Source of the DNA: a virus
Taxonomy: Duplodnaviria; Caudoviricetes
Length of the DNA stretch: 64,000 nt
Strand: one strand, 5' to 3'
Virus record (IMG/VR): IMGVR_UViG_3300035544_000079
Span: 8,136-72,135 of that record
This document shows, piece by piece, positions 10,857 to 45,511 of this stretch. Numbering within the stretch: position 1 is the first letter of the stretch; each line of letters starts with the position of its first letter. Both the position numbers and the translations under genes were made by a program. The notes beneath the pieces were generated by a model. It was not told where the DNA came from and did not search any database. It was given only the letters and a program-made list of their open reading frames with translations.

Positions 10857-12347
10857 TTAACCTTTAATCAATCTTTTGCTAAATTTTACTTTATAACCTA
10901 ACTCTTGTTCGATTAACAAGCTCAACTCATCTAGGTTTACATCTTCCTTTGTAATAAAAGCGTCATAAAGAAGTAAATCATGTGAATAGTTCTTAGTAAT
11001 TAAATCAAGTATTTGACTTTCTATACCAAAATAGTAGTGCATAATCGCCTTATTTGTATTCCATTTACTCATATATTTAGCACTTTTATTTCCTCTTGAA
11101 TTATACAGAATATCTTTTCCATTTTTATCTTTCTTTAGAAACTTATTTTGAATAGATTTCTTTAGGTAAGAAAATAATTTCTTACACTCATCATAAATGT
11201 CATAAGCACTTGGGGTATTTTGTAAAATATATTGAATTTTATCTACACCATAATCATTAGCCCAAGAGTTAGTATGTACCCCATATATCCCTAAATTAGC
11301 TCCAAAGAATATTGCTAAATAAAATTCTTTAGCTTCTTTATAAGAAAAGCCTAAATCAACAATTTCTTGTCTACACTTTTCCTTATTATCAATATAGTAT
11401 TTTATCTTAGGAAAATCATGTGTTTTATGATACTTCTCACCTGTTTGATATAAAATAGTAGGAGCTGAATTTTCAATATCTATTTCATAATACCCTTCAA
11501 AAACTTGTTCCCTGATACTTTTTTCTAAGTTTTGTATGCCAATATACTTCTCTCCACCAAAATTAACTAATCTACCTCCATCTTTTCTTTCATAGTTTAA
11601 AAAATGATTTCCATTATTGTACTTGAAATCTAAATTAAATAGAATTATAAAATCAGTACTATACATTAAATCAGTTTCTCCATCTGTAACTCTTTTTATT
11701 AAGTTTTTTACATTCTCTTGATTATAAGTAAACTTATGTCGGTAGCTCATTCTTGGTCTATTAGACGGAGTTATTGCTGTACCTTGTGCTAACTCTTTAA
11801 TTTCATAAGAATATTTATTAATATTTTTACTTAATTCAGTTCTTGTCAAATTTTCTCCTTGCATTAAATCTTTCTTTGTACTGTACTTATTATTATTATT
11901 TGGATTTATATATCCAATTTTGGTTTTAAACTTCTCTCTTGTGTAATATCTTGTCCTAGAACTCATACCATAACTATATAACTCTATAATAAATTCATAC
12001 CGTAGTCTATAAGCAAAAGTCTTTTCAGTAAAACTATTACAAACTTTACTATCTTTAATTGATTCAAAGAAATAGTCAAAGCTTTTCATTTTATTAAACC
12101 TTTTAAGATTTCTAGTTACATTACTAAAATAATCATAATATATTGAAACATATCCTTTATATTCTTTATGTTTAGCAAAGTTACTATTTATAGACTTATT
12201 TATTAAATAAAGTAAGTCAAAAGTATGTCTAAAGTCATAGAATTTATCATAATGGTTATTAAGAAATTTATTTAAATCAAAGTTAGTGCTAATTAATAAA
12301 TCTTTTGATTTAACTTTACTATGTTTCTTCTCTTTATTTTCTTTTAT
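10857..12347 (-). CDS. Minimal PolA-superfamily (TV-Pol-like) polymerase, paralog 1, 496 aa from an ATA start
   Basis: GGRL...QNLEKSIRE; motif A YEIDIENSA; motif B KEAKEFYLAIFFGA; motif C LLLYDAF. Frame extends 86 codons above the track ATG to ATA 5 nt after TAAGGAGG. Confidence 0.65.
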   Translation of the reverse strand: MKENKEKKHSKVKSKDLLISTNFDLNKFLNNHYDKFYDFRHTFDLLYLINKSINSNFAKHKEYKGYVSIYYDYFSNVTRNLKRFNKMKSFDYFFESIKDSKVCNSFTEKTFAYRLRYEFIIELYSYGMSSRTRYYTREKFKTKIGYINPNNNNKYSTKKDLMQGENLTRTELSKNINKYSYEIKELAQGTAITPSNRPRMSYRHKFTYNQENVKNLIKRVTDGETDLMYSTDFIILFNLDFKYNNGNHFLNYERKDGGRLVNFGGEKYIGIQNLEKSIREQVFEGYYEIDIENSAPTILYQTGEKYHKTHDFPKIKYYIDNKEKCRQEIVDLGFSYKEAKEFYLAIFFGANLGIYGVHTNSWANDYGVDKIQYILQNTPSAYDIYDECKKLFSYLKKSIQNKFLKKDKNGKDILYNSRGNKSAKYMSKWNTNKAIMHYYFGIESQILDLITKNYSHDLLLYDAFITKEDVNLDELSLLIEQELGYKVKFSKRLIKG

Positions 12348-12375
12348 AATAACCTCCTTATTTAACTTAAAATGT

Positions 12376-12399
12376 ATTATATCTAGTATTTACTTAAAG
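12376..12399 (-). promoter_or_regulatory. Promoter CTTTAAG-N11-TATAAT for Pol-like paralog 1
   Basis: ctaagtaat-ctttaag-taaatactaga-tataat, just upstream of the SD at 12360. Confidence 0.65.
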
Positions 12400-12758
12400 A
12401 TTACTTAGGTATATAATTTCTTAGTATTAATATTAATATATTTAAAATAGGGTATAACTAGGTTTAGTATCTAGCTCTTGTTTCCTAGAGTTTTTCCAAA
12501 GAGAACCCTTAGCTGACACAAAAACTATACTAATTTTAAGTATTAAATACACTTGTAACTACCATTAATACGAGGTTAAGAGGCAAAAATTTAAATGACA
12601 TTATTTTAGACTTAACGAAAAGTAAGTGTTTTTATTGTACCTAAATAAAAGACTAGAAATATGTAAATTTTTAAATAAAACTTAACCTATCAACCAACAA
12701 AAATCTCAACAAAATATACCTAAACCTTTAAGAATATTACAAATTTCAAAATTTGTTG

Positions 12759-12798
12759 AAATAAAAAAGTGTAAAATCGCTAAAATGCCCCATATATA
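12759..12798 (+). repeat. 40-bp element, inverted copy at 45921-45960
   Basis: aaataaaaaagtgtaaaatcgctaaaatgccccatatata vs aaataaaaaagtgtaaaatcataaaaacgccccatatatt, 35/40 identical. Confidence 0.8.
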
Positions 12799-12944
12799 AG
12801 TAGAAAGGGTTAAGTTATTTAGCCTTATGTATCTTTATCTGTTTTGTTTCTTTCTCCTTTAAGTAATTTTTCATTTGATTCTCCTTTTAAAACTAAATAA
12901 AAATACAACTTATAACACCTCCTACGATAGGACAAAGGAATAAA

Positions 12945-13511
12945 ATGGCTAAAGATAAAACAAAGCAAAAATCAGCAGAAGATATTTTAATGGAATTACA
13001 TTCTAATACATCTATTCAATCTGAACAAGAAGAGACTTCAAAACAATTAACTCTTAAAGAGAAATCTAGCAAAGAGGACTTAAAAGACTTAGTAACAACA
13101 GAAGCTACTAAAGAAAAGAATTTAACTGAGACAGATTACTTAATACTTGAACAACATTGTTTAGGAGTTGATGAAAAAGTAATTTGTGATGAGTTTAATA
13201 TTACTAAGGGTTATTTAAGAAGTCTTTTTAGAAATAGTAACTCAAGTAAATTTGTTGAAAAGTGGAGTCAAAGTACCCAACAAAAAGTATTAACCCAAAG
13301 TACTGCTAATATTGCTACTGGAATGGATTTATTAACCAAAAAGATTAATAAACTTATTCTTGAAGGTAAAGAAGATTCAGCTATTAGAGAAATGTTTGGT
13401 AAACTTAGTTTAGTTGAAGTACACGAAAAACTTGCTAAACTAAATTCTGAACAAGAAGAAGATACACAAGCTCCTATACAAAATCTTTTCCTTAACTTAC
13501 AACAAAGGTAA
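12945..13511 (+). CDS. Putative terminase small subunit
   Basis: Directly before TerL; HTH-like segment (VDEKVICDEFNITKGYLRSL). Confidence 0.6.
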   Translation: MAKDKTKQKSAEDILMELHSNTSIQSEQEETSKQLTLKEKSSKEDLKDLVTTEATKEKNLTETDYLILEQHCLGVDEKVICDEFNITKGYLRSLFRNSNSSKFVEKWSQSTQQKVLTQSTANIATGMDLLTKKINKLILEGKEDSAIREMFGKLSLVEVHEKLAKLNSEQEEDTQAPIQNLFLNLQQR

Positions 13512-13514
13512 GAT

Positions 13515-14960
13515 ATGGAACAAAAGACTTTTGAAAGATTAGTTCCTAAGAATGTTTTAGAATACCAAGAAACTTGTGGATTAATTAACCCTATTCAAGT
13601 TGCTGAAATGTTAGGACATACTTTACATGAAGGGCAACAAGAATTAGCTAGTTACTTCTTAGCTGAGAATAGGCATAAGTGGGATATTTATGTAGCCCTT
13701 TGTTCAAGAAGATGGGGTAAATCATTTGTTGCTGACGATGTTGCTATTGCTGAGTTATTAACTCCTAATGCAAGAGTTGCTATTATCACAATGGGACTTA
13801 AAAGAGCAAAGGAACACTTCAAAACTATCTTGAATGGACTTAATTCAATACCTGCTTTAAAAGGTAAAGTTAAAGGGTTAAAACAAGAACAAACTATTGA
13901 GATTGAGATTAATGGGAAAATAAGTACCTTAATCATTTCTTCTGAAACAACGTATGAAGCAAGGGTTGTTGGTACAGAGCTAACTTTACTTATTTTAGAT
14001 GAATTTTTCCTTATCAATCCAATTATCCAACAAGAGCTTCTTGATGCTATTATTCCTACAATGGCTACTTATGGTACTTACCCAAATAGCTTAATTAAAT
14101 ATGGTAAAATTGCTATATTTAGTACACCAAGACTTGGAAAACTACAATCTCCAGCAGGTGTCTTATTTGCTAAAGCTGAAAACAAAGACCCTGAATTTGA
14201 TTCTTATGTTTATTCTAAATACGATGTTTATTCAAACCCACTTGTAACAAATGAGATTATTGAATCAGATAGAAAGAAAATGTCTGAAAGTAAATTCAAA
14301 AGAGAGTATTTACTTGAATTTGATAATGGTGGAACAAAAGTTTTAAGTAATTTCTATGAGCAAAAACACGTTATAAATGTTAGAAAACTAGAACATCTTA
14401 AAAATAGAGACGATTTATATTTAGTAATTGCTTACGATTATGGACAATCTGATGGTAATGCAGGTTTATTTGCACTTTATGACGAAAGAATTCATACTTA
14501 TTACTTTATTGAAGGTACTTATGCTAAGAATAGACTTACGAGAGATATGTATTCAGAAGGAATTAAGATTAGAGATAACTTAATGAAAGAGTTTAATATA
14601 TCCAAAGATAACATAGTTTATTTTGGAGACCCTAGCTCACCTGAACTTATCAAATTAGGTTTTATTGATTATGGTATGAGAATTATGAAAGCTAAAAATG
14701 ATAGAAAAGAAGGGTTTGATAAACTAAATGAACATCTAGAGGGTACTCCAGAGATTCCTTCAACAATCTATATAGACCAAAAATTAACAGAAGTTATTAG
14801 ACAATGGGACTTTGCACAATTTAAAGAAATCAATGGAACAGTAACGGTTAATTATGATAGGGATATATTAGAAACACATTTTGAATTTGTTGATACAGCA
14901 AGATACATTGTATATACATTTGATAAATACATAAAGAAAACAAAAATATTAGTAGCTTAA
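13515..14960 (+). CDS. terL: Terminase large subunit
   Basis: Walker A region CSRRWGKS, Walker B LLILDEF, STP coupling motif, RNase H nuclease IAYDYG. Confidence 0.92.
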   Translation: MEQKTFERLVPKNVLEYQETCGLINPIQVAEMLGHTLHEGQQELASYFLAENRHKWDIYVALCSRRWGKSFVADDVAIAELLTPNARVAIITMGLKRAKEHFKTILNGLNSIPALKGKVKGLKQEQTIEIEINGKISTLIISSETTYEARVVGTELTLLILDEFFLINPIIQQELLDAIIPTMATYGTYPNSLIKYGKIAIFSTPRLGKLQSPAGVLFAKAENKDPEFDSYVYSKYDVYSNPLVTNEIIESDRKKMSESKFKREYLLEFDNGGTKVLSNFYEQKHVINVRKLEHLKNRDDLYLVIAYDYGQSDGNAGLFALYDERIHTYYFIEGTYAKNRLTRDMYSEGIKIRDNLMKEFNISKDNIVYFGDPSSPELIKLGFIDYGMRIMKAKNDRKEGFDKLNEHLEGTPEIPSTIYIDQKLTEVIRQWDFAQFKEINGTVTVNYDRDILETHFEFVDTARYIVYTFDKYIKKTKILVA

Positions 14961-14983
14961 AGAGGCTACACAAAAGGAAATAT

Positions 14984-15346
14984 ATGAAAAGATTATTTGA
15001 TAAAATATATTTTTCCTCAGAGCTACTAAGCGATAAAGTTTTAGTAGGAGGAAATAATAAAAACTTACTAAAATTTTTAATTGCTGATACTATTTCAGCT
15101 ACAGAAATTGACCAAGTAGAATTAAAACTACAGGCTCCTTCAACTGAGCGTGGGGGGCTACCTACTTTAGTTTTAGATTGGGAAATACTTACTAAAGATA
15201 CAGATAATATAAACATTTTTGAAAAAGAAATTACTTTTACTGAAACTGAAAGTATAACAGACATTGAAGGGGTTATTAAAATTACTGATACAAAGGGCAA
15301 TATTTTTTATAATCAATACAAACCCTTTGAATTAAAGGTTTTATAA
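14984..15346 (+). CDS. Hypothetical virion-associated protein
   Basis: 120 aa between terL and portal, overlapping the portal start. Confidence 0.55.
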   Translation: MKRLFDKIYFSSELLSDKVLVGGNNKNLLKFLIADTISATEIDQVELKLQAPSTERGGLPTLVLDWEILTKDTDNINIFEKEITFTETESITDIEGVIKITDTKGNIFYNQYKPFELKVL

Positions 15347-16710
15347 TGATACTTAAGAAAGTTTTTCAATCAAAAGAAAATCCAAGTAAAGTAACTAAAA
15401 ACCCTTTAATTAAAGCAGAAGCTCTTGGATATAAAAATGGACAAAAAAGACCTGTTGGACAACAAATTTATAAACAATGGATTAATCAAATATCTGCTTT
15501 AAGAAATGTTCTAGGAACAACTTCTGAATTAGCAAGTGGTGCTAGTATTAAGTTTTATAAAGTAGATACAAAAGGTAAAAAGAAACTAATACTTAACCCT
15601 AAACAGTTTGATACAATGTTTATGAATGATATAGATGATGTTAGTTCATTTTTGTACAACTACTTTGGACAAATTAAAACTTATGATAATGTCTTTATTA
15701 TCCCTGAAGAAAGTAAATACCCTTACAGAAAAGGTAAAATAGATTTCTTTATTGCTGATAATACTAATTGGTATGCTAATCCAAACGAAACTGGAAAACA
15801 AACTATTGATTCATTTACTTATAGAAGTAATCAAGGAATTGAGACTCAGTATAAGTATGAAGATGTTATTTATATTAGAAAGCCATTAACTTCAAGTAAC
15901 TTATTATATGGTGTTTCAAGACTACAATCTCTTAATGAAGAAGTTAATAGAATACTTACAATGGGAGGTTATGTAGATAATTATATAGCAAGTGGTGCTA
16001 AAAAATCTATTATTATTGGTGCAGACAGTCCAATGTCTCCAAATGACCAAATGGATACTATCGAACAATTTAATTCTTTCTTAAAAGACCCTAATACAAA
16101 AGCTTTAATGATTGATACTGAAAAACTTAATATTAAAGAGGTTTCTGAAAGTTTAGCTTCTACTGATGTTATTAACTTTTTAGTTAAGCTTAATAAACAA
16201 GTTTTAGAATCATATAATTTACCGAAGTTTTTATTAGGAAATTATGCTGAAACAAGTAATGCTGAATTAGTAAGACTTTCAATGAGAATATTCTTTCAAA
16301 GTGTTTTATACCCTGAGTTTTTAAGATTAGGTAGACATTTAACTAGATATGCACAAAATATTTTAAATATTAAAAATATGGAAATTGTATTTGATTTTGA
16401 TGGTATTAATTTATTAGAAGACTCACTAGATGAAAGGTTAAAAGCAACTTCTGAAATGTTTAAATTAGGATTATTGAGTCCGAATGAGGCACGAGTTAAA
16501 CTAGGTGAAGATAGTATAGACTTAGAATCTATGGATAAACACTATAGTCCAAGCTACCTATATTCAGGATTACCAGTAAGTTATGAGAATTATGACCAAG
16601 ATATGGAAGCCAAATTAAATACTGAAAAACCAAGCAATAGTTCAAACCAAGATACACCAAAAGGTGATGGTAGAGAGTCACAATCAGAAGATTTAGGAGG
16701 GCGTGTTTAA
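15346..16710 (+). CDS. Portal protein (HK97-like)
   Basis: YGVSRL and LLSPNEARVKLG motifs; position. Confidence 0.85.
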   Translation: MILKKVFQSKENPSKVTKNPLIKAEALGYKNGQKRPVGQQIYKQWINQISALRNVLGTTSELASGASIKFYKVDTKGKKKLILNPKQFDTMFMNDIDDVSSFLYNYFGQIKTYDNVFIIPEESKYPYRKGKIDFFIADNTNWYANPNETGKQTIDSFTYRSNQGIETQYKYEDVIYIRKPLTSSNLLYGVSRLQSLNEEVNRILTMGGYVDNYIASGAKKSIIIGADSPMSPNDQMDTIEQFNSFLKDPNTKALMIDTEKLNIKEVSESLASTDVINFLVKLNKQVLESYNLPKFLLGNYAETSNAELVRLSMRIFFQSVLYPEFLRLGRHLTRYAQNILNIKNMEIVFDFDGINLLEDSLDERLKATSEMFKLGLLSPNEARVKLGEDSIDLESMDKHYSPSYLYSGLPVSYENYDQDMEAKLNTEKPSNSSNQDTPKGDGRESQSEDLGGRV

Positions 16711-17825
16711 TGTGTTCTCCTTTGAAAGTATGTAGAAAGTGAGGTATTGAGGCACACACTAAAGAACATCTTAATATTTTTGTTAAGAGGAAATATTCAT
16801 TAGATGGGTATGATAACTTATGTAAAAAATGTAAAAATAAATTGGATAAGAAATATAAGTCAAAAGAGTATATTGAAAAGAGACTTGAAGAAAAAGCTAA
16901 CCACCTAAGGAAATGTACTAGGTGTGGACTAGAAGCTAAAAGTATTGATGATTTACACATGTTTACTCCATCTAAGGGAAGCGAATATGGGAGACAGAAT
17001 AAATGTAAATCATGTACTAAAATACTTGATTTTGAAAGAAAGCAAGACCTAGAGATAGCATGGCTTAATAAACATACTTACTATAGAAAATGTAACGACT
17101 GTGGGTTAGAGGCAAATAATGAAAGAAGTTTAATATTATTCATAGAATGTAATCGTACCCCTTTTAATCATAGAAATTTATGTAAGGTATGTAATGCTAA
17201 AAGGAAAAATCATATATTACAAGAGGATATTAGACTTTATAAAAGAAAGTGTACCACCTGTGGATTAGAGGGAAAAACATTAGAGGATTTAGAAAATAAC
17301 TTTGTAATAAATAAAAACATGTTACATGGATACAGTAATTTTTGCTTATCTTGTAGAAGTAAAGAACGTATTAAGGCAATGAACGAAAATATAGAATTAA
17401 GAATACAAGATAGAAAAACGTCAAGAATAAGAAGTGTTAAAAAAAGAAGTCATCCAAAACAGTATTCTTACGACTCTGAATTAGAAGAGTTCCTAATTGA
17501 TACTATATATGAAACTTGTTTAGAAAGAGCCAATAAATTTGGGATTCATCTTCATGTTGACCATATATACCCACTTAATTCAAATCTAATGAGTGGATTA
17601 CACATATCCTCGAATTTACAAATTGTAACTGCTGAGTATAATTTAATGAAACAAAATAAGGTAGGTAAAGAGTTCCCAGAACAAGAAAATGTAACCTCTT
17701 TAAGTGACCATATAGGAAATAGAGATGCCCCTTACAAAGTATTTCAAGCCTTAGGATGTAATATGACTTGGGAAGATTTCTTAGTATATGAGAAAAAATA
17801 CTATAAGGATAGTTTATATGAGTAA
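16710..17825 (+). CDS. Multi-zinc-finger HNH endonuclease with in-frame TGA at codon 11
   Basis: ATG 16710 with AGGAGG SD; four CxxC..CxxC repeats, the first reading KVCRK*GIEA; C-terminal HVDHIYPL..GLH..NLQ..N. The track start (TTG 16842) lacks an SD. Confidence 0.75.
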
Positions 17826-17895
17826 AAATGAAGTTAAATTTAAAACCTATTCATCTTTTAAGAATTTCAAAGAAGATGAAGAAAAAGGAATATAA
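17818..17895 (+). CDS. 25-codon mini-ORF (MSKNEVKFKTYSSFKNFKEDEEKGI)
   Basis: TAAGGA SD; overlaps the HNH stop, and its TAA overlaps the protease ATG. Confidence 0.35.
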   Translation: MSKNEVKFKTYSSFKNFKEDEEKGI

Positions 17896-19286
17896 TGAAG
17901 ATTAATAAGAATATTAATATTAGTATATCTAGTAAGAACTTTAATATTTCAGAAAGTCAAGACGAGATTACTTTAGAAGGGTATGCTTCTAAAATGTTTG
18001 ATAATGGTAAAGAAGTAGTTGATTTAGATAGTGAATTTGTTGATACAAAACAATTTGAACTTATTGCTAAAAGACTACTTCTTAACCATAAACTTGAAGA
18101 TGTAGTTGGAGAAATTGAATTAGAACATAGACCTGACGGTATTTACTTAAAAGGTAAAGCCTATAAAGACACTATGGATTCAAAAGAATGGGCTAGATTA
18201 AGAAAAGGTCTTTATTCATTCTCAATAGGGTTTACTGTTGAAGATGGTGAATATAGAGAAATCAATGGACAAGAGACTTTAACATTTACTAAGGGAATCG
18301 TATATGAGGTGTCTCTCGTACCAATTGCCAGTAATCCAAAAGCTATTATTGATAATATGAAATCAATAAATATGGATAAAGGTTGTATTGGACTTCAATG
18401 TTCAGTTGACCAAATCAAATCTATGAATCCTAATATGCCTTGTGATTGTTTAGAGGATTTAAAGAAAGAAGCTGAAAAAACTAAAGGGAAAGAAATGGAT
18501 AAAGAAACTAAAGAAGCTTTAACTAAAAGTATCCAAGAAAATATTATCAAGGGATTAACTATTGAAGAAACTATGTCAGAAATTTGGAATGTAGATGATA
18601 ATTTATGGCAAATGTTTAGATATTTCATTCAAACTATAGAAGATAATATTTATGAATTTGAATGGTCGGATAGTTATGATAGAACTGAGATGGTTACAAA
18701 TATCAACTCAGCAATGGAATTATTTAAACAAACTCTTGAAGAAGAATCACTAAGAATTGGTGAAACTATAGGGAAAGAAATTAATCAAGAGGTTATTACA
18801 AAAGGGAAAGATATGAAAGATAAACAAAAAGAAACTAAATCTACTGAAACAGAAACACCTTCGGAAGAAGTAACTCAGGAAACTCCAAAAGAGGTTGAAA
18901 CAAAAGACTCTGAAACGGATTCGCAAGAAGAAGTTAGCTCAAAAGAGACTCAAGAACAACCTTCAGAAACGAGTGAAAAACCAACTGAGAAACCTAATGA
19001 AGAACCAAAAGAAGATTTAGCTAAAACTTCAGAAGAACAACCTTCTACACCTTCAGAAACTACTGAAGTTGAACCTAAAGCTGAACCAACTAAGGAAGAG
19101 CCTAAAGAAGTTCAAGAAACAAAAGTTGATGAGCCTAAAGTGGTTCAAGAAAAGCCTTCTATTTTTGAATTTGATTTAGTAAAAGCTGAACCAGAAGAGA
19201 TTGCAGAAGCATATGATAAGTTAGCTGATAGACTTGAAGAAATTGAAAGATATGTTGAAGCTGAACTTGCAAAAGATACAGAGTAA
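17895..19286 (+). CDS. Prohead protease fused to an acidic scaffold-like region
   Basis: LEGYAS, LLNH, FSIGF, YEVSLVPIASNP (HK97-type protease); long E/T/P/K low-complexity tail. Confidence 0.85.
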   Translation: MKINKNINISISSKNFNISESQDEITLEGYASKMFDNGKEVVDLDSEFVDTKQFELIAKRLLLNHKLEDVVGEIELEHRPDGIYLKGKAYKDTMDSKEWARLRKGLYSFSIGFTVEDGEYREINGQETLTFTKGIVYEVSLVPIASNPKAIIDNMKSINMDKGCIGLQCSVDQIKSMNPNMPCDCLEDLKKEAEKTKGKEMDKETKEALTKSIQENIIKGLTIEETMSEIWNVDDNLWQMFRYFIQTIEDNIYEFEWSDSYDRTEMVTNINSAMELFKQTLEEESLRIGETIGKEINQEVITKGKDMKDKQKETKSTETETPSEEVTQETPKEVETKDSETDSQEEVSSKETQEQPSETSEKPTEKPNEEPKEDLAKTSEEQPSTPSETTEVEPKAEPTKEEPKEVQETKVDEPKVVQEKPSIFEFDLVKAEPEEIAEAYDKLADRLEEIERYVEAELAKDTE

Positions 19287-19325
19287 TCTGTAAGACTAAA
19301 ATAAAAATAAACAAGGAATAAATTT

Positions 19326-20546: not shown

Positions 20547-20575
20547 TAAGATTGAGGGAAACCTCTTTCTTATTA
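20544..20575 (+). terminator. Hairpin terminator after capsid gene
   Basis: taataaga-tt-gagg-GAAA-cctc-tt-tcttatta. Confidence 0.55.
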
Positions 20576-36342: not shown

Positions 36343-36380
36343 GTTAAATAGTATTAAAAAGTACAAATAAAAATAAACAT

Positions 36381-36544
36381 AGGGCTAAAATTCACCAGAT
36401 TGTTAAATTTGGAGGTAATGCGAATAATTCTTCTCTAGATGGTCTAGGGACGCTTAATGCGAATAATTCCTCTACGAATGTTTCCACGAATATTGGTTCA
36501 GGCATCTTGTAAACTAAGAACCTTTAGCCCTTGCCACTTGGCAA
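36381..36544 (+). ncRNA. DGR template RNA with flanking structure
   Basis: AGGGCTAAA (36381-36389) pairs with TTTAGCCCT (36523-36531) around the TR; hairpin TTGCCA-CT-TGGCAA at 36531-36544. Confidence 0.6.
36399..36507 (+). repeat. DGR template repeat (TR)
   Basis: 109 nt, 30 adenines, 8 AAT codons in the VR frame; lies between target and RT. Confidence 0.93.
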
Positions 36545-36621
36545 AACAAATAACTAAACTTCATTACATATTAGTAAGATTAAATTCTGAAAGTTTGGAA
36601 GTAACAAGACGAAAGAAAAAT

Positions 36622-37677: not shown

Positions 37678-37698
37678 AGCAAAAATAAAGGAAGAAGT

Positions 37699-38088
37699 AT
37701 GGAGATACAAGAAATAAAAATAGTACAAAGTTCAGTAGAGCCTAGTGTTACTGAAGAGTTACAAGGTAAAATACTTGTTAACTTCAATATAGAAGAAAAA
37801 ACTAGAATAGATAATAATGAAGAAGAAATTACTTATTATGAATATTATCAAATATCTAGACCTTTAGGGGATACAGAAGATAGGATAGAAAAGTATACTA
37901 ACTATGCTAAGATACAAATTATGCAAGAGTATTTAGAGAAAACAGATTATATCTCAAATAAATATCAAGACGAAGTTATACTTTTAGGAAATTTAACACA
38001 AGAAGAGTTTATAGAAAAGTATCAAGAAGTATTAAATACAAGAAGTACTTACAGAGGTAATATAAATAAAATATATAAAAATATGTGA
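37699..38088 (+). CDS. Tail fibre assembly/chaperone-like protein
   Basis: C-terminal YLEKTDYISNK..E...LNTRSTYR..IN pattern seen in genes next to phage fibres; not Avd-like. Confidence 0.45.
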   Translation: MEIQEIKIVQSSVEPSVTEELQGKILVNFNIEEKTRIDNNEEEITYYEYYQISRPLGDTEDRIEKYTNYAKIQIMQEYLEKTDYISNKYQDEVILLGNLTQEEFIEKYQEVLNTRSTYRGNINKIYKNM

Positions 38089-38186
38089 ATGTGGGCAGAA
38101 ATGTTCTTATGTATTCTGTTATAATAGTATTTGGAAGAAAATATAAAGATGTTTAAGGTATTATAAAGAAATATAAAAGGAAAAAT

Positions 38187-39092
38187 ATGATAGTAACAAA
38201 AGAAAATGGAACGATTTATACAAAATATATTAAAAATATATGTATGTGGTTAGGTAAAGGGTTTGTAAAAGTTTATCCTTACTTAGCTGTAATGTTGGTG
38301 TTAGCTGGATTATACTTTCACACACAAGCTATGGTTATCCTAGGTTTAATATTTATCACTCATTTAATTATAGCATTTAGTACTAGAGATAAAACTAGGC
38401 CTATTTGTTATAATTATTTCTTAACTAATAATTGGCATATACCAAGATTAACTAGAGATGATAAGTTAATTATTAAAGAAGATGATGATAAATACACATT
38501 TGTTTCATCTAAATATAATTCTACAAATATATTAACTAAAAGAGAGATTCCAAGTTGGTTATTTTGGATTTCCTTCTTAGGTGGTTGGATTTGGTTTGGA
38601 GATAATTCTGATGCAGATTTAACTGTTGAAAATTATGCTGATGACATTATAAGAGAAAAAAAGCACTTTGATTGGATACCTAGTTGGCTAGGTTTTCATA
38701 AAGAAATACAAAGAGAGTGGGATTATATTAAAACTCAACCTAAAGGAACTTCTTTCCATTTAGCTGAAGGGAGAACTAAAGTAAGTATACTTAAAACACC
38801 TCTTATGACTTTACTATGGCAAATAAGAAATACGAGTTATAACTATGGCTACTACTTTGAAGAAAAAGCCAAAGATGATAAAGACTTCTATTATTATCAT
38901 ACTAAGAGAAAATATCCTATACCTACATTAAATAGTTGGAATGGAATACCTTATATTTGGTATGAGATGTCTTATCTTCACTTTGGGTTTATCCCTTATG
39001 ATAATAGTGAGAGACAAGGTAGAGCTGTTATATTTACTGAAGATATAAATAAGGTTGATGATGAAATCAGGAACATATACATCAATGGATAA
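38187..39092 (+). CDS. Hypothetical membrane protein
   Basis: Two to three hydrophobic segments; aromatic-rich; WQIRN motif. Confidence 0.55.
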   Translation: MIVTKENGTIYTKYIKNICMWLGKGFVKVYPYLAVMLVLAGLYFHTQAMVILGLIFITHLIIAFSTRDKTRPICYNYFLTNNWHIPRLTRDDKLIIKEDDDKYTFVSSKYNSTNILTKREIPSWLFWISFLGGWIWFGDNSDADLTVENYADDIIREKKHFDWIPSWLGFHKEIQREWDYIKTQPKGTSFHLAEGRTKVSILKTPLMTLLWQIRNTSYNYGYYFEEKAKDDKDFYYYHTKRKYPIPTLNSWNGIPYIWYEMSYLHFGFIPYDNSERQGRAVIFTEDINKVDDEIRNIYING

Positions 39093-39267
39093 AATTATTA
39101 GAGAGTTTAGTGAAGTACCTAAGCTTTATAATTCTACAAGAGTTGATTTAAGAACAAATAATATAGGACATAAGGTAATATTCGACCCCGAAGCATTTAA
39201 TAATGTTAATACTTTAGAAAGAAACAAACAAATAATATTTAGTTATGAATGGAGGATAGAATTTTGA
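39085..39267 (+). CDS. Small hypothetical protein
   Basis: MDKIIREF start overlaps the upstream stop. Confidence 0.4.
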   Translation: MDKIIREFSEVPKLYNSTRVDLRTNNIGHKVIFDPEAFNNVNTLERNKQIIFSYEWRIEF

Positions 39268-39599
39268 TTAATATAAGCACACTCTTAACTAATATTAAAG
39301 TTTACATTTATATAGGACTATTTTTAGGAGTAATTTCTTTTTTAGTTTATGCTTACTATAAATATAATAATATGATTTCTACAATAGAAAATCAAGAGAT
39401 TATTATTAAAAATAAAGACATAGAGTTAAGTATAGAAAAAGCTAATTATAAAGAATTAGAAAGAAAACACTCTAACGAAATACTTAAGTTAAAAGCTGAA
39501 ACTAAAATAAAAGCTAAACAAAAAGAAATAGAAAAAGGAGTAAGTTATGATAAAAGCAATTCAAGGGAAATTACCTCTACATATATTGATTTGCCTTAG
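39249..39599 (+). CDS. Inner-membrane spanin (Rz-like)
   Basis: N-terminal TM plus coiled coil; overlaps the lipoprotein gene. Confidence 0.6.
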   Translation: MEDRILINISTLLTNIKVYIYIGLFLGVISFLVYAYYKYNNMISTIENQEIIIKNKDIELSIEKANYKELERKHSNEILKLKAETKIKAKQKEIEKGVSYDKSNSREITSTYIDLP

Positions 39600-39903
39600 T
39601 GCTTTTAGCCTCTTCTTTTCAGGCTGTTCTCAAAAGGAACCTCAAGTAATTATTCAAAAAGAGTACATTTATGAAAAACCTTTTGAGTTCGTTATTTATG
39701 ATACAAAAGGTTTAAGAGTAAATGCTAAAACAAAAGAACTTCAAAGAATATGTACTCCTTTAGTTCTTGAAGTAGGAGGTATTTATAGAAAATTTATTAA
39801 TGGTTATGAAGAACAAATTAAAGAGTATAATACTTATAATAAAAATAAGAGTATAAATAATACTAAGGATACTTATATATCAAATAAAAAAGAGCTTAAA
39901 TGA
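39547..39903 (+). CDS. Outer-membrane lipoprotein spanin (Rz1-like)
   Basis: Lipobox LFFSGC followed by SQKEPQV. Confidence 0.65.
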   Translation: MIKAIQGKLPLHILICLSAFSLFFSGCSQKEPQVIIQKEYIYEKPFEFVIYDTKGLRVNAKTKELQRICTPLVLEVGGIYRKFINGYEEQIKEYNTYNKNKSINNTKDTYISNKKELK

Positions 39904-40175
39904 CTTTAGAAGAAAAAGATAAATATAGGTTAAGATTTAAGGTAGCTTCTATTTTAATGGTTTTTGGTGTTCTTGTTGGAGGAATTATTTTAGCTTACTT
40001 TGGAAGTATAAGTGGTTTCGGAGGAATTGCTGGTTCAGTGTGTGCTTTTGCAAGTGCTGTTTTTGGGATAGATTATTATACTTCCCCTAAAGATACTAAT
40101 AAATCAAGCACTTCTAAAGATAATTCCTTTAAAAGAAATAATCTAGACATAGATACAGAGTTAGGTAGGTATTAA
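39900..40175 (+). CDS. Putative holin
   Basis: Two TM helices, charged C-tail, 91 aa. Confidence 0.6.
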   Translation: MTLEEKDKYRLRFKVASILMVFGVLVGGIILAYFGSISGFGGIAGSVCAFASAVFGIDYYTSPKDTNKSSTSKDNSFKRNNLDIDTELGRY

Positions 40176-40237
40176 TAATACTAAAGTATTAAAATATTAA
40201 AATACTAATAAATAAAAATATTTGAGGAATAATTTAG

Positions 40238-40822
40238 ATGGATTTTTTTAATAAAGGCTTAGAAAAAACAAGCAAATTAAGCGAAAATGATGCTAATGAG
40301 TTATTTAATAGGCTAAGATTTTTAGAAATGAAAGGTGCTGAGCAAGATAAAGATATTAGCTCTATTATTACAGCTGTTAGAGAAGTCAAAGAAATATTTA
40401 AAGAGCATGATGATAAAGAGATGAAAAAATATGAACAAACAGATAACTCAATAAAGCAAATGACTGAAAGTATGATTAAAGTTAATGAAAATCTAAACTC
40501 TTTAGATAGTAGTATAAAAAATCAATCCACTCAATTAGAAAAGTTATCAGAGGCTCATTATAAGCATAAAGAGGATGTAGATAACAGATTAGATAAGCAA
40601 GACGCTAAGATAAATAAAATGTTAGGAGGATTGATTTTGGGCTCAATTCTTTTGGGTATGTCTTGGCAAGTATATACTTACTTTGCCAATAAGTTTGAAA
40701 GACAAGAGCATGTAAGAATTGAAGAGAAAAAACAACTAGAAGAAAAGATTAAGTTACTAGAAAATTATACGAATAGGAATAAAGGTAGTTTAGATACTTT
40801 AAAACAAATAAAAGGTAAATAA
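40238..40822 (+). CDS. Coiled-coil membrane protein (holin/antiholin-like)
   Basis: Long coiled coil then one TM (MLGGLILGSILLGMSW), just before the endolysin. Confidence 0.45.
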   Translation: MDFFNKGLEKTSKLSENDANELFNRLRFLEMKGAEQDKDISSIITAVREVKEIFKEHDDKEMKKYEQTDNSIKQMTESMIKVNENLNSLDSSIKNQSTQLEKLSEAHYKHKEDVDNRLDKQDAKINKMLGGLILGSILLGMSWQVYTYFANKFERQEHVRIEEKKQLEEKIKLLENYTNRNKGSLDTLKQIKGK

Positions 40823-40842
40823 AGAAAATAGAAAGGATAACG

Positions 40843-41478
40843 ATGGATTACAATACATCTGATAAGTCCAATATATGTTTTAATTGGACAGTAGGTAAAG
40901 AGGGTGGGTTTGTACATAATATAGATGGAGATGGTCTATATACGCTCTTTGGGATAACTCAAAAGTATAACCCTAATTGGGAGGGTTGGGATATAGTAAA
41001 TCAAATAATAAAAGACCGCCCAAAAGATTATAAAGAAATTATTAATAAAAATACAGAGTTAAAAGCTTTAGCACAAAAAAGATATAAAAATAAGTATTGG
41101 GAAACTCTTTGGGAAGAATTACCAATTAGATTTGGTTTAGTATTTTTTGATATGAGAGTTCAACATGGAAGAAGATTAGATAAAGAGATTCAAAAACTTA
41201 TCAAAAGAAAACTTCCTAAAGAAATTGCTGAATATGAAGCACAAGGAAAAAGATTTGTTGATAGTTATTATGGAAAGACTACCCAAAAATATATTTTAAA
41301 AATGCTTAATCAGTATGGTGAAATGGAAATTTTGTTTCAATTACTTTTAGAGAGGCTTGATTTATTTGTAGATTGGGCTGAGTATAAGAATAAAAAACAC
41401 CTTTATTTTGGTACAACAAAGCATAGAGTGAGAGATTTATATATGGAGATTCTTAAATCAAAATATAATGAGGATTAA
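40843..41478 (+). CDS. Endolysin, glycoside hydrolase family 108-like
   Basis: EGGFVHNIDGDG..TLFGIT catalytic motif; FDMRVQHG. Confidence 0.85.
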   Translation: MDYNTSDKSNICFNWTVGKEGGFVHNIDGDGLYTLFGITQKYNPNWEGWDIVNQIIKDRPKDYKEIINKNTELKALAQKRYKNKYWETLWEELPIRFGLVFFDMRVQHGRRLDKEIQKLIKRKLPKEIAEYEAQGKRFVDSYYGKTTQKYILKMLNQYGEMEILFQLLLERLDLFVDWAEYKNKKHLYFGTTKHRVRDLYMEILKSKYNED

Positions 41479-42749: not shown

Positions 42750-43913
42750 CTAAGAGGTTAATTCCTCGAAATCTCCTTTTATTAAATCTTTACTAAACCT
42801 TTTAGGAATTTTTTTCTCTTTAATGTATTTAAACATTTCCTCATCAGAGACCTTGTAATTTCCCCATATATCCATTCTATTAAACTGTACTAATTTTTCA
42901 AAACTAAATAAATATCCATCTCCTCTTATAAAATTTTTTAAAGTTATATTAACTTTTGCTTCTAATATCTGTAAATTATCAACATGGTCTAACCCATTTA
43001 TATATTTACCATTTAGTGGGACTATATGGTCTATGTGAAATTCTGTTGAATATCTTTTATTGAAATACTCCCTAACCCTATAAAGCTTTTTCTCATATTT
43101 TTTATCTTCTTTACTTCCTCTTAGCCTTTTAGCCATTTTCATAGCTGTAACTCTTCTACCATGTATAGGATTATACTTACTTTTATAATTAACTTTTTTA
43201 ATGTAATTTAAAGTACATTGGTTACTTTTTCTCCTATACTCAGGGTCATTACTACGTCTCTCTCTATTTAAAGCATTCATACACGATTTACACTTCCTAA
43301 ATTTTAGTATAGAAGGTTTGGAGGATTTAAAACCTTGATTCCCAAGAAGTTCTACTATATTTTCATCTTGTAAGAACAATTCCCCACACCTTGAACACTT
43401 ACCTTGTATCAGTTCTTTACCTTTTGTTAAATTTTTTACTTCAAGTATAAATTTATCTTTTGACATAACTCCTTTTAATTGCTCTTGTTTATGTAAATAC
43501 CTTAAAGTCTTTTCATACTCTTCTCTTAGTCTATGGAAATTTTTAGCAAGGATTGTGTAAGGAACTCTTTTATCTATAGGTATTTTACCTTTTTTATCAC
43601 TAAAACATTTATGACATATACCTTTATACTCATTTACCTCATTATAATATATCCTAAACTGTTTGCCCATATCTTTATTTTTATAGAATTTTGTTTTACA
43701 ACAAGTACATTTAAAAAACCCTTTAGTCTTTGTATTCATATTTTCTAAACAAGTTGAGCAATATTCTTGTTTTTTAAATAAAATATTTTCAGGAAAAGGT
43801 CTTCTATGTAACTTTTTTACTCTTTTCCACTCATTGTTAGGATTATATCTGTTAAACTTTTTACCACAATCCTTACAAGTATATTCTTCCTCTTCTACAT
43901 ATTCATATTTCAT
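42750..43913 (-). CDS. Zinc-finger HNH homing endonuclease
   Basis: Multiple CxxC; FHIDHIVPLNG..NGL..VDNLQIL..N. Confidence 0.8.
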   Translation of the reverse strand: MKYEYVEEEEYTCKDCGKKFNRYNPNNEWKRVKKLHRRPFPENILFKKQEYCSTCLENMNTKTKGFFKCTCCKTKFYKNKDMGKQFRIYYNEVNEYKGICHKCFSDKKGKIPIDKRVPYTILAKNFHRLREEYEKTLRYLHKQEQLKGVMSKDKFILEVKNLTKGKELIQGKCSRCGELFLQDENIVELLGNQGFKSSKPSILKFRKCKSCMNALNRERRSNDPEYRRKSNQCTLNYIKKVNYKSKYNPIHGRRVTAMKMAKRLRGSKEDKKYEKKLYRVREYFNKRYSTEFHIDHIVPLNGKYINGLDHVDNLQILEAKVNITLKNFIRGDGYLFSFEKLVQFNRMDIWGNYKVSDEEMFKYIKEKKIPKRFSKDLIKGDFEELTS

Positions 43914-45511
43914 TCTAATAATTCCTCGAAATTACTTTCTAATTTTTCTTTACTAAAAGTTAAATCATAACCTAACTCTTTCATAACAATTCTACTTAAT
44001 TCCTCTAAGTCAATATTATTAGGAGATATAAATTCATCAAATAATAATAAACTAATATCATACCTTTTACAAACTATATCTAGGATTTGACTTTCTACAC
44101 CATTATAAATAAAACTTAATACTTTAGGGTTATTCCACTTATCAAGGTTTTTAGAAGTACCTCTTGTATTTAATACTTTGTACTTTGTTTTCAACTCTTT
44201 AGCATTTTCTAAGGCTTTTTGTTTAAAATATTCCCCTAATTCATTATATAAGTAAATAATCTCTTCAACAATGTTTTGTACTTTAGTATTATTAAGAGCT
44301 TTTACTAAATTATCTCCTCCTATACTTTTTACTATAGTTGAATACTGTTCAAGGCTTTCAAGATTAGTTGATAAATTAGCTCCAAACAATAAAGCTGTAA
44401 AATACTGTTTAGCTTGTTTATAAGTAAAACCTTCTTTTACAAGCTCTTGTCTGAATTGTTCTTTATCTCTAATATATTCCTCAATATAATAAAAGTTACA
44501 CTTCTTTGCAATAAACCTCCAATAAAGTTGATAAAATACATTTATAACTGCCGTATTAATATCATAAGCATATTGCCCTTCAAACATTACTGCCCTAAAT
44601 TTACTAGGCAACTGTTGTGGAACAATATTACTATTATAATTAGCCCTTTGGTAAAGTCTCCCTCCACCTTTTCTTTGATAAACAAATGTACTTTCTAACC
44701 CTTTTAAATCCCTAAAATCAGAAACTACCGAAGCAAAGTGAATACAATTTAACATATTACTATTGTTACTAACATTCCTTTTTAAAAAAGAAATACAATC
44801 ATCAATTCTTTCATCATTTAGTTTAGGGTAATGTTGGAAGTCAATATCTCCCTTTAACTCTTTTTTAGTAAGAACTTGTCTATGTTGTTTTGATGGTAAT
44901 GTTTTAAATACTTCCATATACTTTTCCATAAAATCTTCTGTTTCTCTGTTAGACAACCCTAATTCCTCCTTCATTTGTTTTCTAGTTAAATAGATTTCTT
45001 TATTCATAATATTATAACATATCTTTTCTTCAAACTTTCTTAAGTAATATGTTATTAGTTTATCTTCTGTTGAGACAAATGCTAAATAGACATCTTCTAA
45101 AATACCTTCTTTTATTCTATACCCTTTAGTATATCCCTTAGTATTATAGGTATTTATTTCATTATCTCTTAAGTAAAACCTATACCCTAAATCTTCCTCA
45201 AAGATTTCATAAAAGATATGTTTCTTATGTCTTGTTGCATAAGTACCTAATATCTTATCTAATGTTTTAAAACTTATTGAGTAAAGGTTCTTATCCTCAG
45301 AGTGTGAAAGAATAGAACCTTTTTGAATTAAGTTAAAGAGATATATAATAGAGTATGTTTGCTTAAAGTTTTTTTGAAGGATTTTATACTTACTTATTAT
45401 CTTATTGTAATTAACCTTAGAGACAAACTCTGTAGGTATCTTATCTTTAGTATTCTTAGTATCAGTACTAATTGTATTAGTCTTATGTTTATTCTTATCT
45501 ATACTTTTTAT
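43910..45511 (-). CDS. Minimal PolA-superfamily (TV-Pol-like) polymerase, paralog 2, 533 aa from an ATA start
   Basis: GGGRLY..QQLPSKFR; motif A YAYDINTA; motif B KQAKQYFTALLFGA; motif C LLLFDEF. Frame open 168 codons above the track ATG to ATA 5 nt after AAAGGAG. Confidence 0.65.
   Translation of the reverse strand: MKSIDKNKHKTNTISTDTKNTKDKIPTEFVSKVNYNKIISKYKILQKNFKQTYSIIYLFNLIQKGSILSHSEDKNLYSISFKTLDKILGTYATRHKKHIFYEIFEEDLGYRFYLRDNEINTYNTKGYTKGYRIKEGILEDVYLAFVSTEDKLITYYLRKFEEKICYNIMNKEIYLTRKQMKEELGLSNRETEDFMEKYMEVFKTLPSKQHRQVLTKKELKGDIDFQHYPKLNDERIDDCISFLKRNVSNNSNMLNCIHFASVVSDFRDLKGLESTFVYQRKGGGRLYQRANYNSNIVPQQLPSKFRAVMFEGQYAYDINTAVINVFYQLYWRFIAKKCNFYYIEEYIRDKEQFRQELVKEGFTYKQAKQYFTALLFGANLSTNLESLEQYSTIVKSIGGDNLVKALNNTKVQNIVEEIIYLYNELGEYFKQKALENAKELKTKYKVLNTRGTSKNLDKWNNPKVLSFIYNGVESQILDIVCKRYDISLLLFDEFISPNNIDLEELSRIVMKELGYDLTFSKEKLESNFEELLE

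What the first reader, a model, noticed from the sequence alone, without database searches (positions are those of the whole stretch)
10857..45511. Two paralogous minimal PolA-palm (TV-Pol-like) genes bracket the virion module, in addition to a true PolA
Seen: 10857..12347 and 43910..45511 share GRL-x-Q, motif A Asp (EIDI/AYDI), motif B (K-AK..FGA), ESQILD and motif C Asp (YDA/FDE), have homologous N-termini (FRHTFDLLYL vs FKQTYSIIYL), lack exonuclease domains, and each lies next to a long non-coding region. Known: the TV-Pol family is related to PolA and T7-like RNA polymerases and was proposed to act as primase-polymerase. Inference: two dedicated origin-priming or mini-RNA-polymerase enzymes, each paired with its own cis site, forming an undescribed initiation system.
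Basis: partly seen in the sequence, partly recalled or inferred. Interest (0 to 1): 0.8.

Follow-up and report, generated by a model that had tools for sequence, protein, structure and literature searches.

The report
Two minimal TV-Pol-like phage polymerases
Besides its ordinary DNA polymerase, this uncultured low-GC phage carries two anciently duplicated genes for stripped-down polymerases with a DNA-binding-like head; they probably start nucleic-acid chains at specific sites to begin replication, but they belong to the already described, still untested TV-Pol/divPolA2 group.

Summary

Seven residues are invariant in 65 diverse relatives: Y278, R285, D317, R354, K368, E473 and D492. The family is large (1035 clusters) and has no Pfam, PHROG, NCBIfam or PADLOC model.

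It is not a new kind. Profile comparison links it to divPolA2 (Yutin 2024; 94.5%) and to a form fused to a D5/VapE-type helicase (98%), which is the classic TV-Pol architecture. The nearest viral folds include virophage and giant-virus replication proteins.

Unlike the phage's own PolA and CcPol, the family lacks the Glu and Phe that exclude ribonucleotides.

Best reading (about 0.5): site-specific initiator primase-polymerases. A transcribing RNA polymerase remains possible. Pairing with "own cis sites" is unproven.

This scan has noted similar minimal PolA/TV-Pol-like genes on other DNA (36 notes, at least 31 genomes).

The parts
10857..12347 (-). Paralog 1 (496 aa): ATA start, N-terminal head plus minimal polymerase core. 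It belongs to the 'terminase-side' orthologous group.
   Evidence: SD + ATA; paralogy; motifs; syntenic orthologue P0015 in L011, also ATA start; clade support 97
43910..45511 (-). Paralog 2 (533 aa): ATA start. Head at residues about 28-216; thumb, palm and fingers at 217-531. R285 lies in the hairpin, D317 in motif A, K368 in motif B, E473 in the ESQILD motif and D492 in motif C.
   Evidence: (model pLDDT 85.1, pTM 0.84); syntenic orthologue P0006 in L002; clade support 94
12348..12944 (.). Non-coding region of 597 nt between paralog 1 and the small-terminase gene. It holds the promoter-like box, a block shared with phage L011, and one copy of the 78-nt element.
12376..12411 (-). Promoter/operator-like box (CTAAGTAATCTTTAAG, then 11 nt, then TATAAT) directly upstream of paralog 1. 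It is one copy of a recurring minus-strand motif.
   Evidence: (family D1)
12727..12804 (+). Copy A of the 78-nt element (near-palindrome ACAAATTTnnAAATTTGT ... GTGTAAAATC ... GCCCCATATAT). It faces the terminase operon and is conserved in phage L011.
   Evidence: (I1, 81%)
45915..45992 (-). Copy B of the 78-nt element, facing the 64-aa gene and paralog 2.
45691..45885 (-). 64-aa gene between element B and paralog 2. A 63-aa gene sits at the same place in L002.
45512..45690 (.). 179-nt non-coding leader or spacer upstream of paralog 2.
42750..43913 (-). Zinc-finger/HNH-type protein (387 aa) overlapping the stop of paralog 2 by 4 nt. Its last 39 nt copy the 3' end of paralog 2 (79%), giving the same C-terminal tail (FSK-L-KG-FEE).
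   Evidence: (D20)
62487..63998 (-). The phage's regular family-A DNA polymerase. The frame runs off the contig end. It keeps the Glu (motif A +5) and Phe (motif B +4) that the two paralogs lack, so it serves as an internal control.

Best explanation
Each gene encodes a stand-alone initiator polymerase of the TV-Pol/divPolA2 kind. An N-terminal head that weakly resembles a winged helix would place the enzyme on a specific DNA site. A minimal family-A-type polymerase would then start a short chain de novo, most likely RNA or mixed, because the ribonucleotide-excluding residues are absent. This polymerase has a short thumb, the Arg285 hairpin, palm Asp317 and Asp492, and fingers Lys368. The phage's regular PolA would extend the primer.

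The two paralogs are an old duplication kept in fixed genome positions. They would therefore serve two different sites or stages, for example an early and a late origin. The ATA start codons would keep their amounts low.

Shown here: the fold, the invariant catalytic residues, paralogy and orthologous groups, absence of an exonuclease domain, relatedness to helicase-fused forms and to divPolA2, and absence of the Glu/Phe sugar gate.

Inferred: de novo initiation, RNA as the product, sequence-specific binding, and a role in replication.
For: Fold and catalytic residues
- Seven residues are invariant in 65 diverse members.

Links to replication proteins
- The family profile hits a 723-aa protein whose residues 73-299 are this polymerase core (hhalign 98.1%, E 1e-13). 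Its residues 467-590 are DUF5906/VapE-like, a D5-type helicase. That is the slot usually held by a primase, which is the argument Iyer et al. used for TV-Pol.
- The best annotated viral structural neighbours include virophage and giant-virus replication proteins: Zamilon 'DNA replication protein', Qinghai Lake virophage 'helicase/primase/polymerase', and an 'origin-binding protein domain' protein. Their E-values are 1e-7 to 1e-10, against about 1e-5 for canonical PolA.
- The family is related to divPolA2 (94.5%, E 8e-8). The ICP1 member lies at 57.7-60.9 kb, depending on isolate. ICP1's early theta-replication read peak is 'near the 60 kb position' (PMC7145576).

Sugar selection
- Motif A +5 is A/H/V/S, never Glu. 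Motif B +4 is T/I/L/N/S, never Phe.
- The window's own PolA keeps both residues. The DNA primase CcPol also keeps them (PMC7581432).
- The helicase-fused form shares the His and HDG signature.

Other context
- Distant members sit beside integrases and restriction genes in bacterial islands, where a replication starter makes more sense than a transcriptase.
- CcPol-MP shows that a family-A core can act as a primase.
Against: - No member with this architecture has been assayed.
- In this phage no D5-like helicase lies next to either gene, and the contig is only about 79% complete. Whether a canonical primase exists is therefore unknown.
- The cis elements beside the genes look like promoters or operators rather than iteron-type origins.
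- The ICP1 origin link rests on a coordinate coincidence of about 1-2 kb in a distant relative.
Confidence: 0.5

Rival explanations
1. They are miniature single-subunit RNA polymerases that transcribe phage gene classes. The two paralogs would read two promoter types, and the N-terminal head would replace the promoter-recognition elements of T7 RNAP.
For: - No Glu steric gate, and motif C H-D-G/A-F resembling T7 HDSFGT.
- GR-x-Y plus a following Q resembles T7 RGRVY and NPQG.
- A conserved 78-nt promoter-like element precedes the late operon and the paralog 2 unit, and is conserved in another phage.
- Yutin et al. propose this for divPolA2.
Against: - Only two copies of the 78-nt element occur in 72 kb.
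- The recurrent promoter-like motif in the minus-strand arms carries a perfect TATAAT, which suggests the host sigma factor.
- The thumb is very short, and the model shows no long specificity loop. A 29-kb late operon would need a processive enzyme.
- The position equivalent to T7 Tyr639 is Phe in 37 of 65 members.
- Relatives fused to a D5/VapE helicase, or sitting singly beside integrases, are hard to explain as transcriptases.
- No Pfam phage-type RNA polymerase hit.
Confidence: 0.25
2. They are accessory DNA polymerases for repair, recombination or lesion bypass. They would extend existing 3' ends and have no initiating role.
For: - The top structural matches are DNA polymerases (Pol theta, Klenow).
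- There is no proofreading domain.
- The genes lie in arms rich in recombination, repair and nucleotide-metabolism genes: SbcCD-like, FEN, RNR and ThyX.
- Yutin et al. list repair as an option.
Against: - Both residues that family-A DNA polymerases use to reject ribonucleotides are missing, although the phage's own PolA has them.
- A sequence-reading head is not expected on a repair polymerase.
- Helicase-fused relatives point to priming.
Confidence: 0.1
3. They are replication modules of mobile elements that have settled in the phage, or serve another role such as making a decoy or signalling nucleic acid against host defence. In that case they would not be part of the phage's own replication.
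For: - Distant members lie next to integrases.
- In Arcobacteraceae genomes they lie next to Mrr and type I restriction genes.
- An HNH gene has inserted at the 3' end of paralog 2.
Against: - Both paralogs have syntenic orthologues in other phages, at the same borders of the virion module. This argues for a stable core role.
- No recombinase lies next to either gene in the window.
- No PADLOC match.
Confidence: 0.1

Closest known systems
TV-Pol family (Iyer, Abhiman and Aravind 2008, PMC2579912), e.g. the polymerase domain of virophage V13-type replication proteins
   Same: - Minimal family-A/T7-RNAP-type core: hairpin Arg, two palm Asp, fingers Lys.
- No exonuclease domain.
- Stand-alone forms of 400-600 aa carry an extra N-terminal domain.
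- Relatives are fused to a D5-type helicase or sit beside integrases.
- Virophage replication proteins are among the best viral fold matches.
   Different: - No direct sequence match was obtained to a named TV-Pol. A profile search of the Ma-LMM01 genome was empty.
- The literal RxxxK motif is not kept: the invariant Arg is 14 residues before the Lys.
- The head here is mixed alpha/beta and winged-helix-like, whereas Iyer et al. predicted an all-helical domain.
- In this phage neither gene has a helicase or recombinase neighbour.
divPolA2 (Yutin et al. 2024, PMC11348598; representative AUR84708 of Vibrio phage 1.063.O; also barbaviruses and ICP1)
   Same: - An extra polymerase in phages that already have a regular DNA polymerase.
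- N-terminal globular domain of unknown kind, and no exonuclease domain.
- 2-3 paralogs in some genomes.
- hhalign 94.5%, E 8e-8 over the whole catalytic core.
   Different: - The link is beyond HMMER's reach, and the N-terminal domains do not align.
- The six Vibrio-phage sequences sampled, including ICP1, have Glu at the steric-gate position and D-E in motif C. The present family never has the Glu, and 56 of 65 members have D-G or D-A in motif C, closer to the Aeromonas/barbavirus subtype.
- The proteins here are 60-100 aa longer.
CcPol-MP primase of SCCmec (Bebel et al. 2020, PMC7581432; Rice 2023, PMC10061031)
   Same: A family-A polymerase core used as a primase on a mobile element. It is the only biochemically tested precedent for priming by this fold.
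   Different: - CcPol keeps the Glu710 and Phe762 equivalents and makes DNA primers.
- It needs a separate OB-fold partner (MP) and lacks the N-terminal head.
- No such partner was identified here.
T7-like single-subunit RNA polymerases, including N4 RNAPII and mitochondrial RNAP
   Same: - GR-x-Y hairpin motif.
- No Glu gate, and an HD-small-aromatic motif C.
   Different: - About 500 aa against 800-1200 aa.
- No Pfam RNA polymerase hit.
- No long specificity loop in the model.
- The Tyr639 equivalent is Phe in more than half of the members.
Family-A DNA polymerases (Pol I/Klenow, Pol theta, T7 DNAP), including the phage's own PolA at 62487..63998
   Different: - No PF00476 hit.
- No exonuclease domain.
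- Truncated thumb.
- The Glu and Phe sugar-discriminating residues are missing.

Membership tests
TV-Pol (Iyer et al. 2008) | [quoted passage not shown] | tested here: met
   Strands 276-281 and 285-288 in the model. R285 is invariant in 65 sequences and G284 is present in 55 of 65.
TV-Pol (Iyer et al. 2008) | RRM-like palm with two conserved metal-binding Asp | tested here: met
   [not shown]
TV-Pol (Iyer et al. 2008) | Fingers inserted after the first palm strand, with an RxxxK motif | tested here: inconclusive
   K368 is invariant, in a motif-B-like helix (K-x3-T-A-L-F-F/Y-G). Position K-4 is variable. An invariant Arg (R354) lies 14 residues upstream. Its structural equivalence was not established.
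TV-Pol (Iyer et al. 2008) | Thumb built on two antiparallel helices | tested here: inconclusive
   Helices 233-245 and 253-268 precede the hairpin, and structural alignments start at residues 217-222. They are much shorter than a Pol I thumb. Yutin et al. describe divPolA2 as lacking a homologous thumb.
TV-Pol (Iyer et al. 2008) | No fusion or linkage to exonuclease domains | tested here: met
   No Pfam or NCBIfam hit. The N-terminal 220 residues are winged-helix-like. The 150 best representatives are at most 577 aa.
TV-Pol (Iyer et al. 2008) | Context: fused or linked to a D5-like helicase, or an N-terminal domain plus a resolvase, integrase or transposase neighbour | tested here: met
   This holds for the family, not for this phage. 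P0154 has the core at residues 73-299 and DUF5906/VapE-like at 467-590. P0038 and P0080 lie next to integrases. In the window itself no helicase or recombinase is adjacent.
TV-Pol (Iyer et al. 2008) | Detectable sequence relation to a named TV-Pol member | tested here: inconclusive
   A profile search of the Microcystis phage Ma-LMM01 record gave nothing, but the first-look filter found no candidates to score. The relation rests on Foldseek hits to virophage replication proteins.
divPolA2 (Yutin et al. 2024) | Homology to the divPolA2 catalytic core | tested here: met
   hhalign of the 65-sequence profile against a 9-sequence divPolA2 profile: 94.5%, E 8e-8, 182 columns, all motifs in register. 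Against AUR84708 alone: 45%. Controls with T7 RNAP and the window's PolA scored under 1%. HMMER alone finds no link.
divPolA2 (Yutin et al. 2024) | Encoded in addition to a regular DNA polymerase, with an N-terminal globular domain, no exonuclease, sometimes several paralogs | tested here: met
   Regular PolA at 62487..63998. Two paralogs in the genome. Head domain modelled. The N-terminal domains themselves did not align.
Family-A DNA polymerase (Pfam PF00476) | Match to the family profile, and the Glu (motif A +5) and Phe (motif B +4) sugar gate | tested here: not met
   No PF00476 hit in either paralog or in any of 65 relatives. Motif A +5 is A30/H19/V13/S3 and motif B +4 is T/I/L/N/S. The window's PolA has Glu and Phe at these positions.
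T7-like single-subunit RNA polymerase | Match to the phage-type RNAP profile; Tyr639-equivalent; promoter-reading N-terminal domain and specificity loop | tested here: inconclusive
   [not shown]
CcPol-MP type PolA-SSB primase | Family-A core that keeps the dNTP-selecting residues and pairs with an adjacent OB-fold ssDNA-binding partner | tested here: not met
   The Glu and Phe equivalents are absent, whereas CcPol has E174 and F225. The genes downstream of the paralogs are an HNH protein or lie behind a promoter-like box. No partner was identified, although the small neighbouring ORFs were not folded.

The most novel reading that the evidence does not exclude
The two paralogs could be a dedicated pair of origin-specific RNA-primer polymerases: a primase class built on the PolA/T7-RNAP fold with its own DNA-reading head. 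Each would fire at a different site or stage of phage replication, and conserved AUA start codons would hold both at very low levels. This would make the large unnamed family (over 1000 sequence clusters) a third major way, besides DnaG and AEP primases, in which phages start DNA replication.
Probability: 0.25. Interest if true: 0.75.

Novelty: new member of a known kind. Interest (0 to 1): 0.4.

Why it matters
TV-Pol and divPolA2 polymerases are widespread in phages, virophages and mobile elements. Apart from CcPol-MP, which lacks the N-terminal head, none is reported as biochemically characterised in the papers read here. Whether they are primases, RNA polymerases or repair enzymes is still open.

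This locus adds four useful facts:
- A very large subfamily exists that no domain library covers.
- It lacks both residues that family-A DNA polymerases use to reject ribonucleotides, while a helicase-fused relative shares the non-Glu (His) gate position and the HDG motif C. That points to RNA priming.
- The duplication into two fixed-position orthologous groups is old.
- Paralog 2, paralog 1 and the paralog 1 orthologue in another phage all start at AUA, which suggests that dosage is tightly limited.

The phage itself is uncultured, so the question is better tested in ICP1 or with recombinant protein.

Tried and rejected
Family libraries and sequence searches
- Pfam, PHROGs, NCBIfam and PADLOC gave no family for either paralog. 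Pfam also gave none for any of 65 relatives.
- PDB sequence and profile searches gave nothing significant. A weak match (E 0.6) of residues 162-211 to the fingers HTH of Bst Pol I was set aside as chance.
- tblastn of paralog 2 against GenBank phages, and of a distant member against GenBank phages and PLSDB plasmids, gave no match.
- The IMG/VR pattern scan found no relatives. The 65-sequence alignment was too diverse for that tool.
- The second word-indexed homologue search was swamped by low-complexity candidates, but it did give the helicase-fused P0154.

Links to named relatives
- Profile searches of the Ma-LMM01 and MG592441 records were empty at the first-look stage.
- HMMER found no link to AUR84708.
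- hhalign against single sequences of T7 RNAP and the window's PolA gave under 1%, with meaningless alignments.
- Relatives of a virus record cannot be drawn, and Logan contigs are not held as records. Co-occurrence of both paralogs in related phages could therefore not be checked.

Local features and neighbouring genes
- Rfam and tRNA scans of the window found nothing.
- Sigma-70 consensus scans of both upstream regions were not enriched over shuffles.
- No primase or replicative helicase was recognised among the larger ORFs. This is not evidence of absence, because the contig is about 79% complete.
- I considered that the shared C-terminal tail is a docking motif also present on a helicase. 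I rejected this: the P0154 match is to the polymerase core, not the tail.

Full report
**The sequence.** The window is 27% G+C phage DNA. It is part of a 72,135-bp IMG/VR record that CheckV rates about 79% complete. The surrounding stop-to-stop frames are 10857..12389 and 43910..45523. Standard ORF calling returns only 410 and 365 aa, because the frames hold no ATG, GTG or TTG for the first 87 and 169 codons.

**Start codons.** The upstream parts are nevertheless coding. They align between the two proteins and with full-length homologues whose Met sits at the same place. Each frame has a strong Shine-Dalgarno (TAAGGAGGT and AAAGGAG) followed 5 nt later by ATA. The orthologue of paralog 1 in another phage contig (L011) has TAAGGAGGT, 6 nt, then ATA. 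The ATA starts are therefore real and conserved. A script found two more candidate non-AUG starts in this genome, at 8468..9433 (ATT) and 50800..51165 (ATA).

**Paralogy and family.** The two proteins share 30% identity over 490 residues (E 2e-42).
- A profile of six close sequences found 1035 representative clusters (at 50% identity) at E up to 0.001 among 1.8 billion proteins. Of these, 393 scored at or below 1e-10.
- In an alignment of 65 diverse members, Y278, R285, D317, R354, K368, E473 and D492 (paralog 2 numbering) are invariant.
- Neither paralog, nor any of the 65 relatives scanned against Pfam, matches a Pfam family. The two paralogs also have no significant PHROG or NCBIfam match, and they and six relatives have no PADLOC match, apart from one weak hit outside the polymerase core.
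- The genome holds exactly two copies. The family profile does not pick up the phage's regular PolA.
- A quick maximum-likelihood tree puts paralog 1 with P0010, P0011, P0012, P0013, P0015 and P0023 (SH-aLRT 97). It puts paralog 2 with P0004 to P0008 (SH-aLRT 94).
- Synteny agrees. P0015 is divergent from terminase and portal genes, with ThyX downstream, like paralog 1. P0006 follows a 63-aa gene and converges on lysin and tail-fibre genes, like paralog 2.
- The duplication therefore predates this group of phages, and both copies have kept their places. The careful tree search did not finish, so this is the quick tree only.

**Structure.** AlphaFold2 with the 65-sequence alignment gives a confident model of paralog 2 (mean pLDDT 85.1, pTM 0.84).
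- I read the head as probably DNA-binding, but this is not established. There is no exonuclease domain.

**Relation to known groups.** Three results place the family.
- Against predicted viral structures, the best hit is a full-length uncultured-phage protein (E 1e-11, TM 0.57). Close behind come virophage and giant-virus replication proteins in which a TV-Pol domain is expected to be fused to a helicase. Examples are Zamilon 'DNA replication protein' and Qinghai Lake virophage 'helicase/primase/polymerase'. They score better than canonical PolA.
- The family profile hits a 723-aa metagenomic protein, P0154. Its residues 73-299 align to the core with hhalign probability 98.1% (E 1e-13), with every motif in register. 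Its residues 467-590 are DUF5906/VapE-like, a D5-type helicase module. This is the architecture on which Iyer et al. based the primase-polymerase prediction for TV-Pols.
- I built a 9-sequence divPolA2 profile from GenBank phages. hhalign gave 94.5%, E 8e-8 over 182 core columns. The same query gave under 1% to T7 RNAP or to the window's PolA as single sequences.
- HMMER alone sees no link, and the heads do not align. This is a distant sister subfamily rather than divPolA2 proper.

**Active-site signature.** Family-A DNA polymerases reject ribonucleotides with a Glu five residues after the motif A Asp and a Phe four residues after the motif B Lys. These are E710 and F762 of E. coli Pol I, quoted in PMC7581432.

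| Protein or group | Motif A Asp +5 | Motif B Lys +4 | Residue after motif C Asp |
|---|---|---|---|
| This family (65 sequences) | A30, H19, V13, S3 | T, I, L, N or S | G36, A20, C5, S3, E1 |
| Window's own PolA | Glu | Phe | Ala (HDA) |
| CcPol (DNA primase) | Glu (E174) | Phe (F225) | not checked |
| T7 RNAP | Gly (DGSCSG) | Met | Ser (HDSFGT) |
| Helicase-fused P0154 | His | not checked | Gly (HDG) |
| divPolA2, six Vibrio-phage sequences incl. ICP1 | Glu | not Phe | Glu |
| divPolA2, Aeromonas and barbavirus type | His or Trp | not Phe | Ser |

The registers come from motif alignment, not from superposed coordinates, so residue equivalence is an inference. The pattern suggests that this subfamily can use NTPs.

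**Surroundings.**
- The plus-strand block 12945..41478 is the virion module, with large terminase, portal, protease, capsid and tape measure. It also holds a reverse transcriptase noted elsewhere as a DGR.
- The minus-strand arms carry RNR, ThyX and a ClpP-like protein on the left. On the right they carry SbcCD-like proteins, FEN, Dam and PolA.
- Paralog 1 has, 5 nt upstream of its Shine-Dalgarno region, one copy of a recurring box (TTAAGnAAnCTTTAAG, 11 nt, TATAAT). This box occurs at least six times on the minus strand. I read it as a host-type -10 with an operator or activator site.
- A 78-nt element lies about 380-400 nt upstream of both paralogs, but in opposite orientation. It contains a near-palindrome and GCCCCATATAT. 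It faces the terminase operon at 12727..12804 and the 64-aa gene plus paralog 2 at 45915..45992. It is conserved in L011 at the same place.
- This looks like a shared (late?) promoter or operator, not a private origin for each enzyme. No Rfam family or tRNA is present.

**Wider context.** Distant members lie next to phage-type integrases. In Poseidonibacter and Aliarcobacter genomes they lie next to Mrr and type I restriction genes. That echoes Iyer et al.'s description of TV-Pol islands. It is also compatible with an Arcobacteraceae-like low-GC host; host G+C was not checked here.

The ICP1 divPolA2 gene lies at 57.7-59.0 kb (MW794165), or 59.6-60.9 kb in another isolate. Published marker-frequency data place ICP1's early bidirectional origin 'near the 60 kb position'. 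This is suggestive, but it is only a coincidence of coordinates in a distant relative.

**Verdict.** The best-supported mechanism is a site-specific initiator primase-polymerase, probably making RNA primers (confidence about 0.5). A miniature transcribing RNA polymerase is the main rival (about 0.25). The enzyme type is already in the literature as TV-Pol (2008) and divPolA2 (2024), and this scan has noted similar minimal PolA/TV-Pol-like genes in at least 31 other genomes. I therefore file it as a new member of a known kind. Its noteworthy local features are conserved AUA starts, an old fixed-position duplication, and an active site without the ribonucleotide gate.

Noticed in passing
window 42750..43957: A 387-aa Cys-rich/HNH-type gene overlaps the stop of paralog 2 by 4 nt. 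It ends with a 39-nt copy (79%) of paralog 2's own 3' end, so both proteins finish with FSK-L-KG-FEE. Orthologues of paralog 2 in other contigs have the tail but no HNH gene. This looks like the scar of a homing-endonuclease insertion.
   Followed up: partly
window 1620, 10603, 10838, 12393, 49109, 53379 (minus strand): A recurring box, TTAAGnAAnCTTTAAG, then 11 nt, then TATAAT (often with TGn before it), lies in front of minus-strand genes, including paralog 1. The inverted TTAAG/CTTAA halves suggest a dimeric regulator site replacing a -35.
   Followed up: partly
window 12727..12804 and 45915..45992; L011 8930..9010: A 78-nt element is repeated in inverted orientation 33 kb apart and is conserved in a second phage in front of its terminase operon. 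It is a candidate late promoter or operator.
   Followed up: partly
window 8468..9433 and 50800..51165: Two more genes appear to start at ATT or ATA a few bases after a strong Shine-Dalgarno. Non-AUG initiation seems to be a habit of this phage.
   Followed up: partly
window 12430..12520; L011 9400..9500: A block of roughly 90 nt, richer in G+C, lies just upstream of paralog 1's promoter-like box. It is partly conserved between the two phages (shared strings such as GAAAAACTCT and AACCTAGTTA). Its function is unknown.
   Followed up: no
window 2736..5990: The ribonucleotide reductase large subunit carries a LAGLIDADG domain at residues 626-682 inside the barrel domain. This is probably an intein.
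   Followed up: no
window 61661..63998: The regular PolA frame runs off the contig end. It is followed by a NUMOD1-containing (homing-endonuclease-like) ORF that overlaps its 3' end. Its motif C reads HDA rather than HDE.
   Followed up: no
window 36457..37677: A reverse transcriptase (PHROG 1423, E 2e-92) lies inside the tail-fibre region. This is consistent with the DGR noted by another reader.
   Followed up: no
L015 (Poseidonibacter lekithochrous) 9221..10888; L016 (Aliarcobacter MAG) 2364..3989: Distant family members lie in Arcobacteraceae chromosomes beside Mrr-type and type I restriction genes. This gives a host clue for the 27% G+C phage. It also hints that some members live in defence or mobile islands.
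   Followed up: partly
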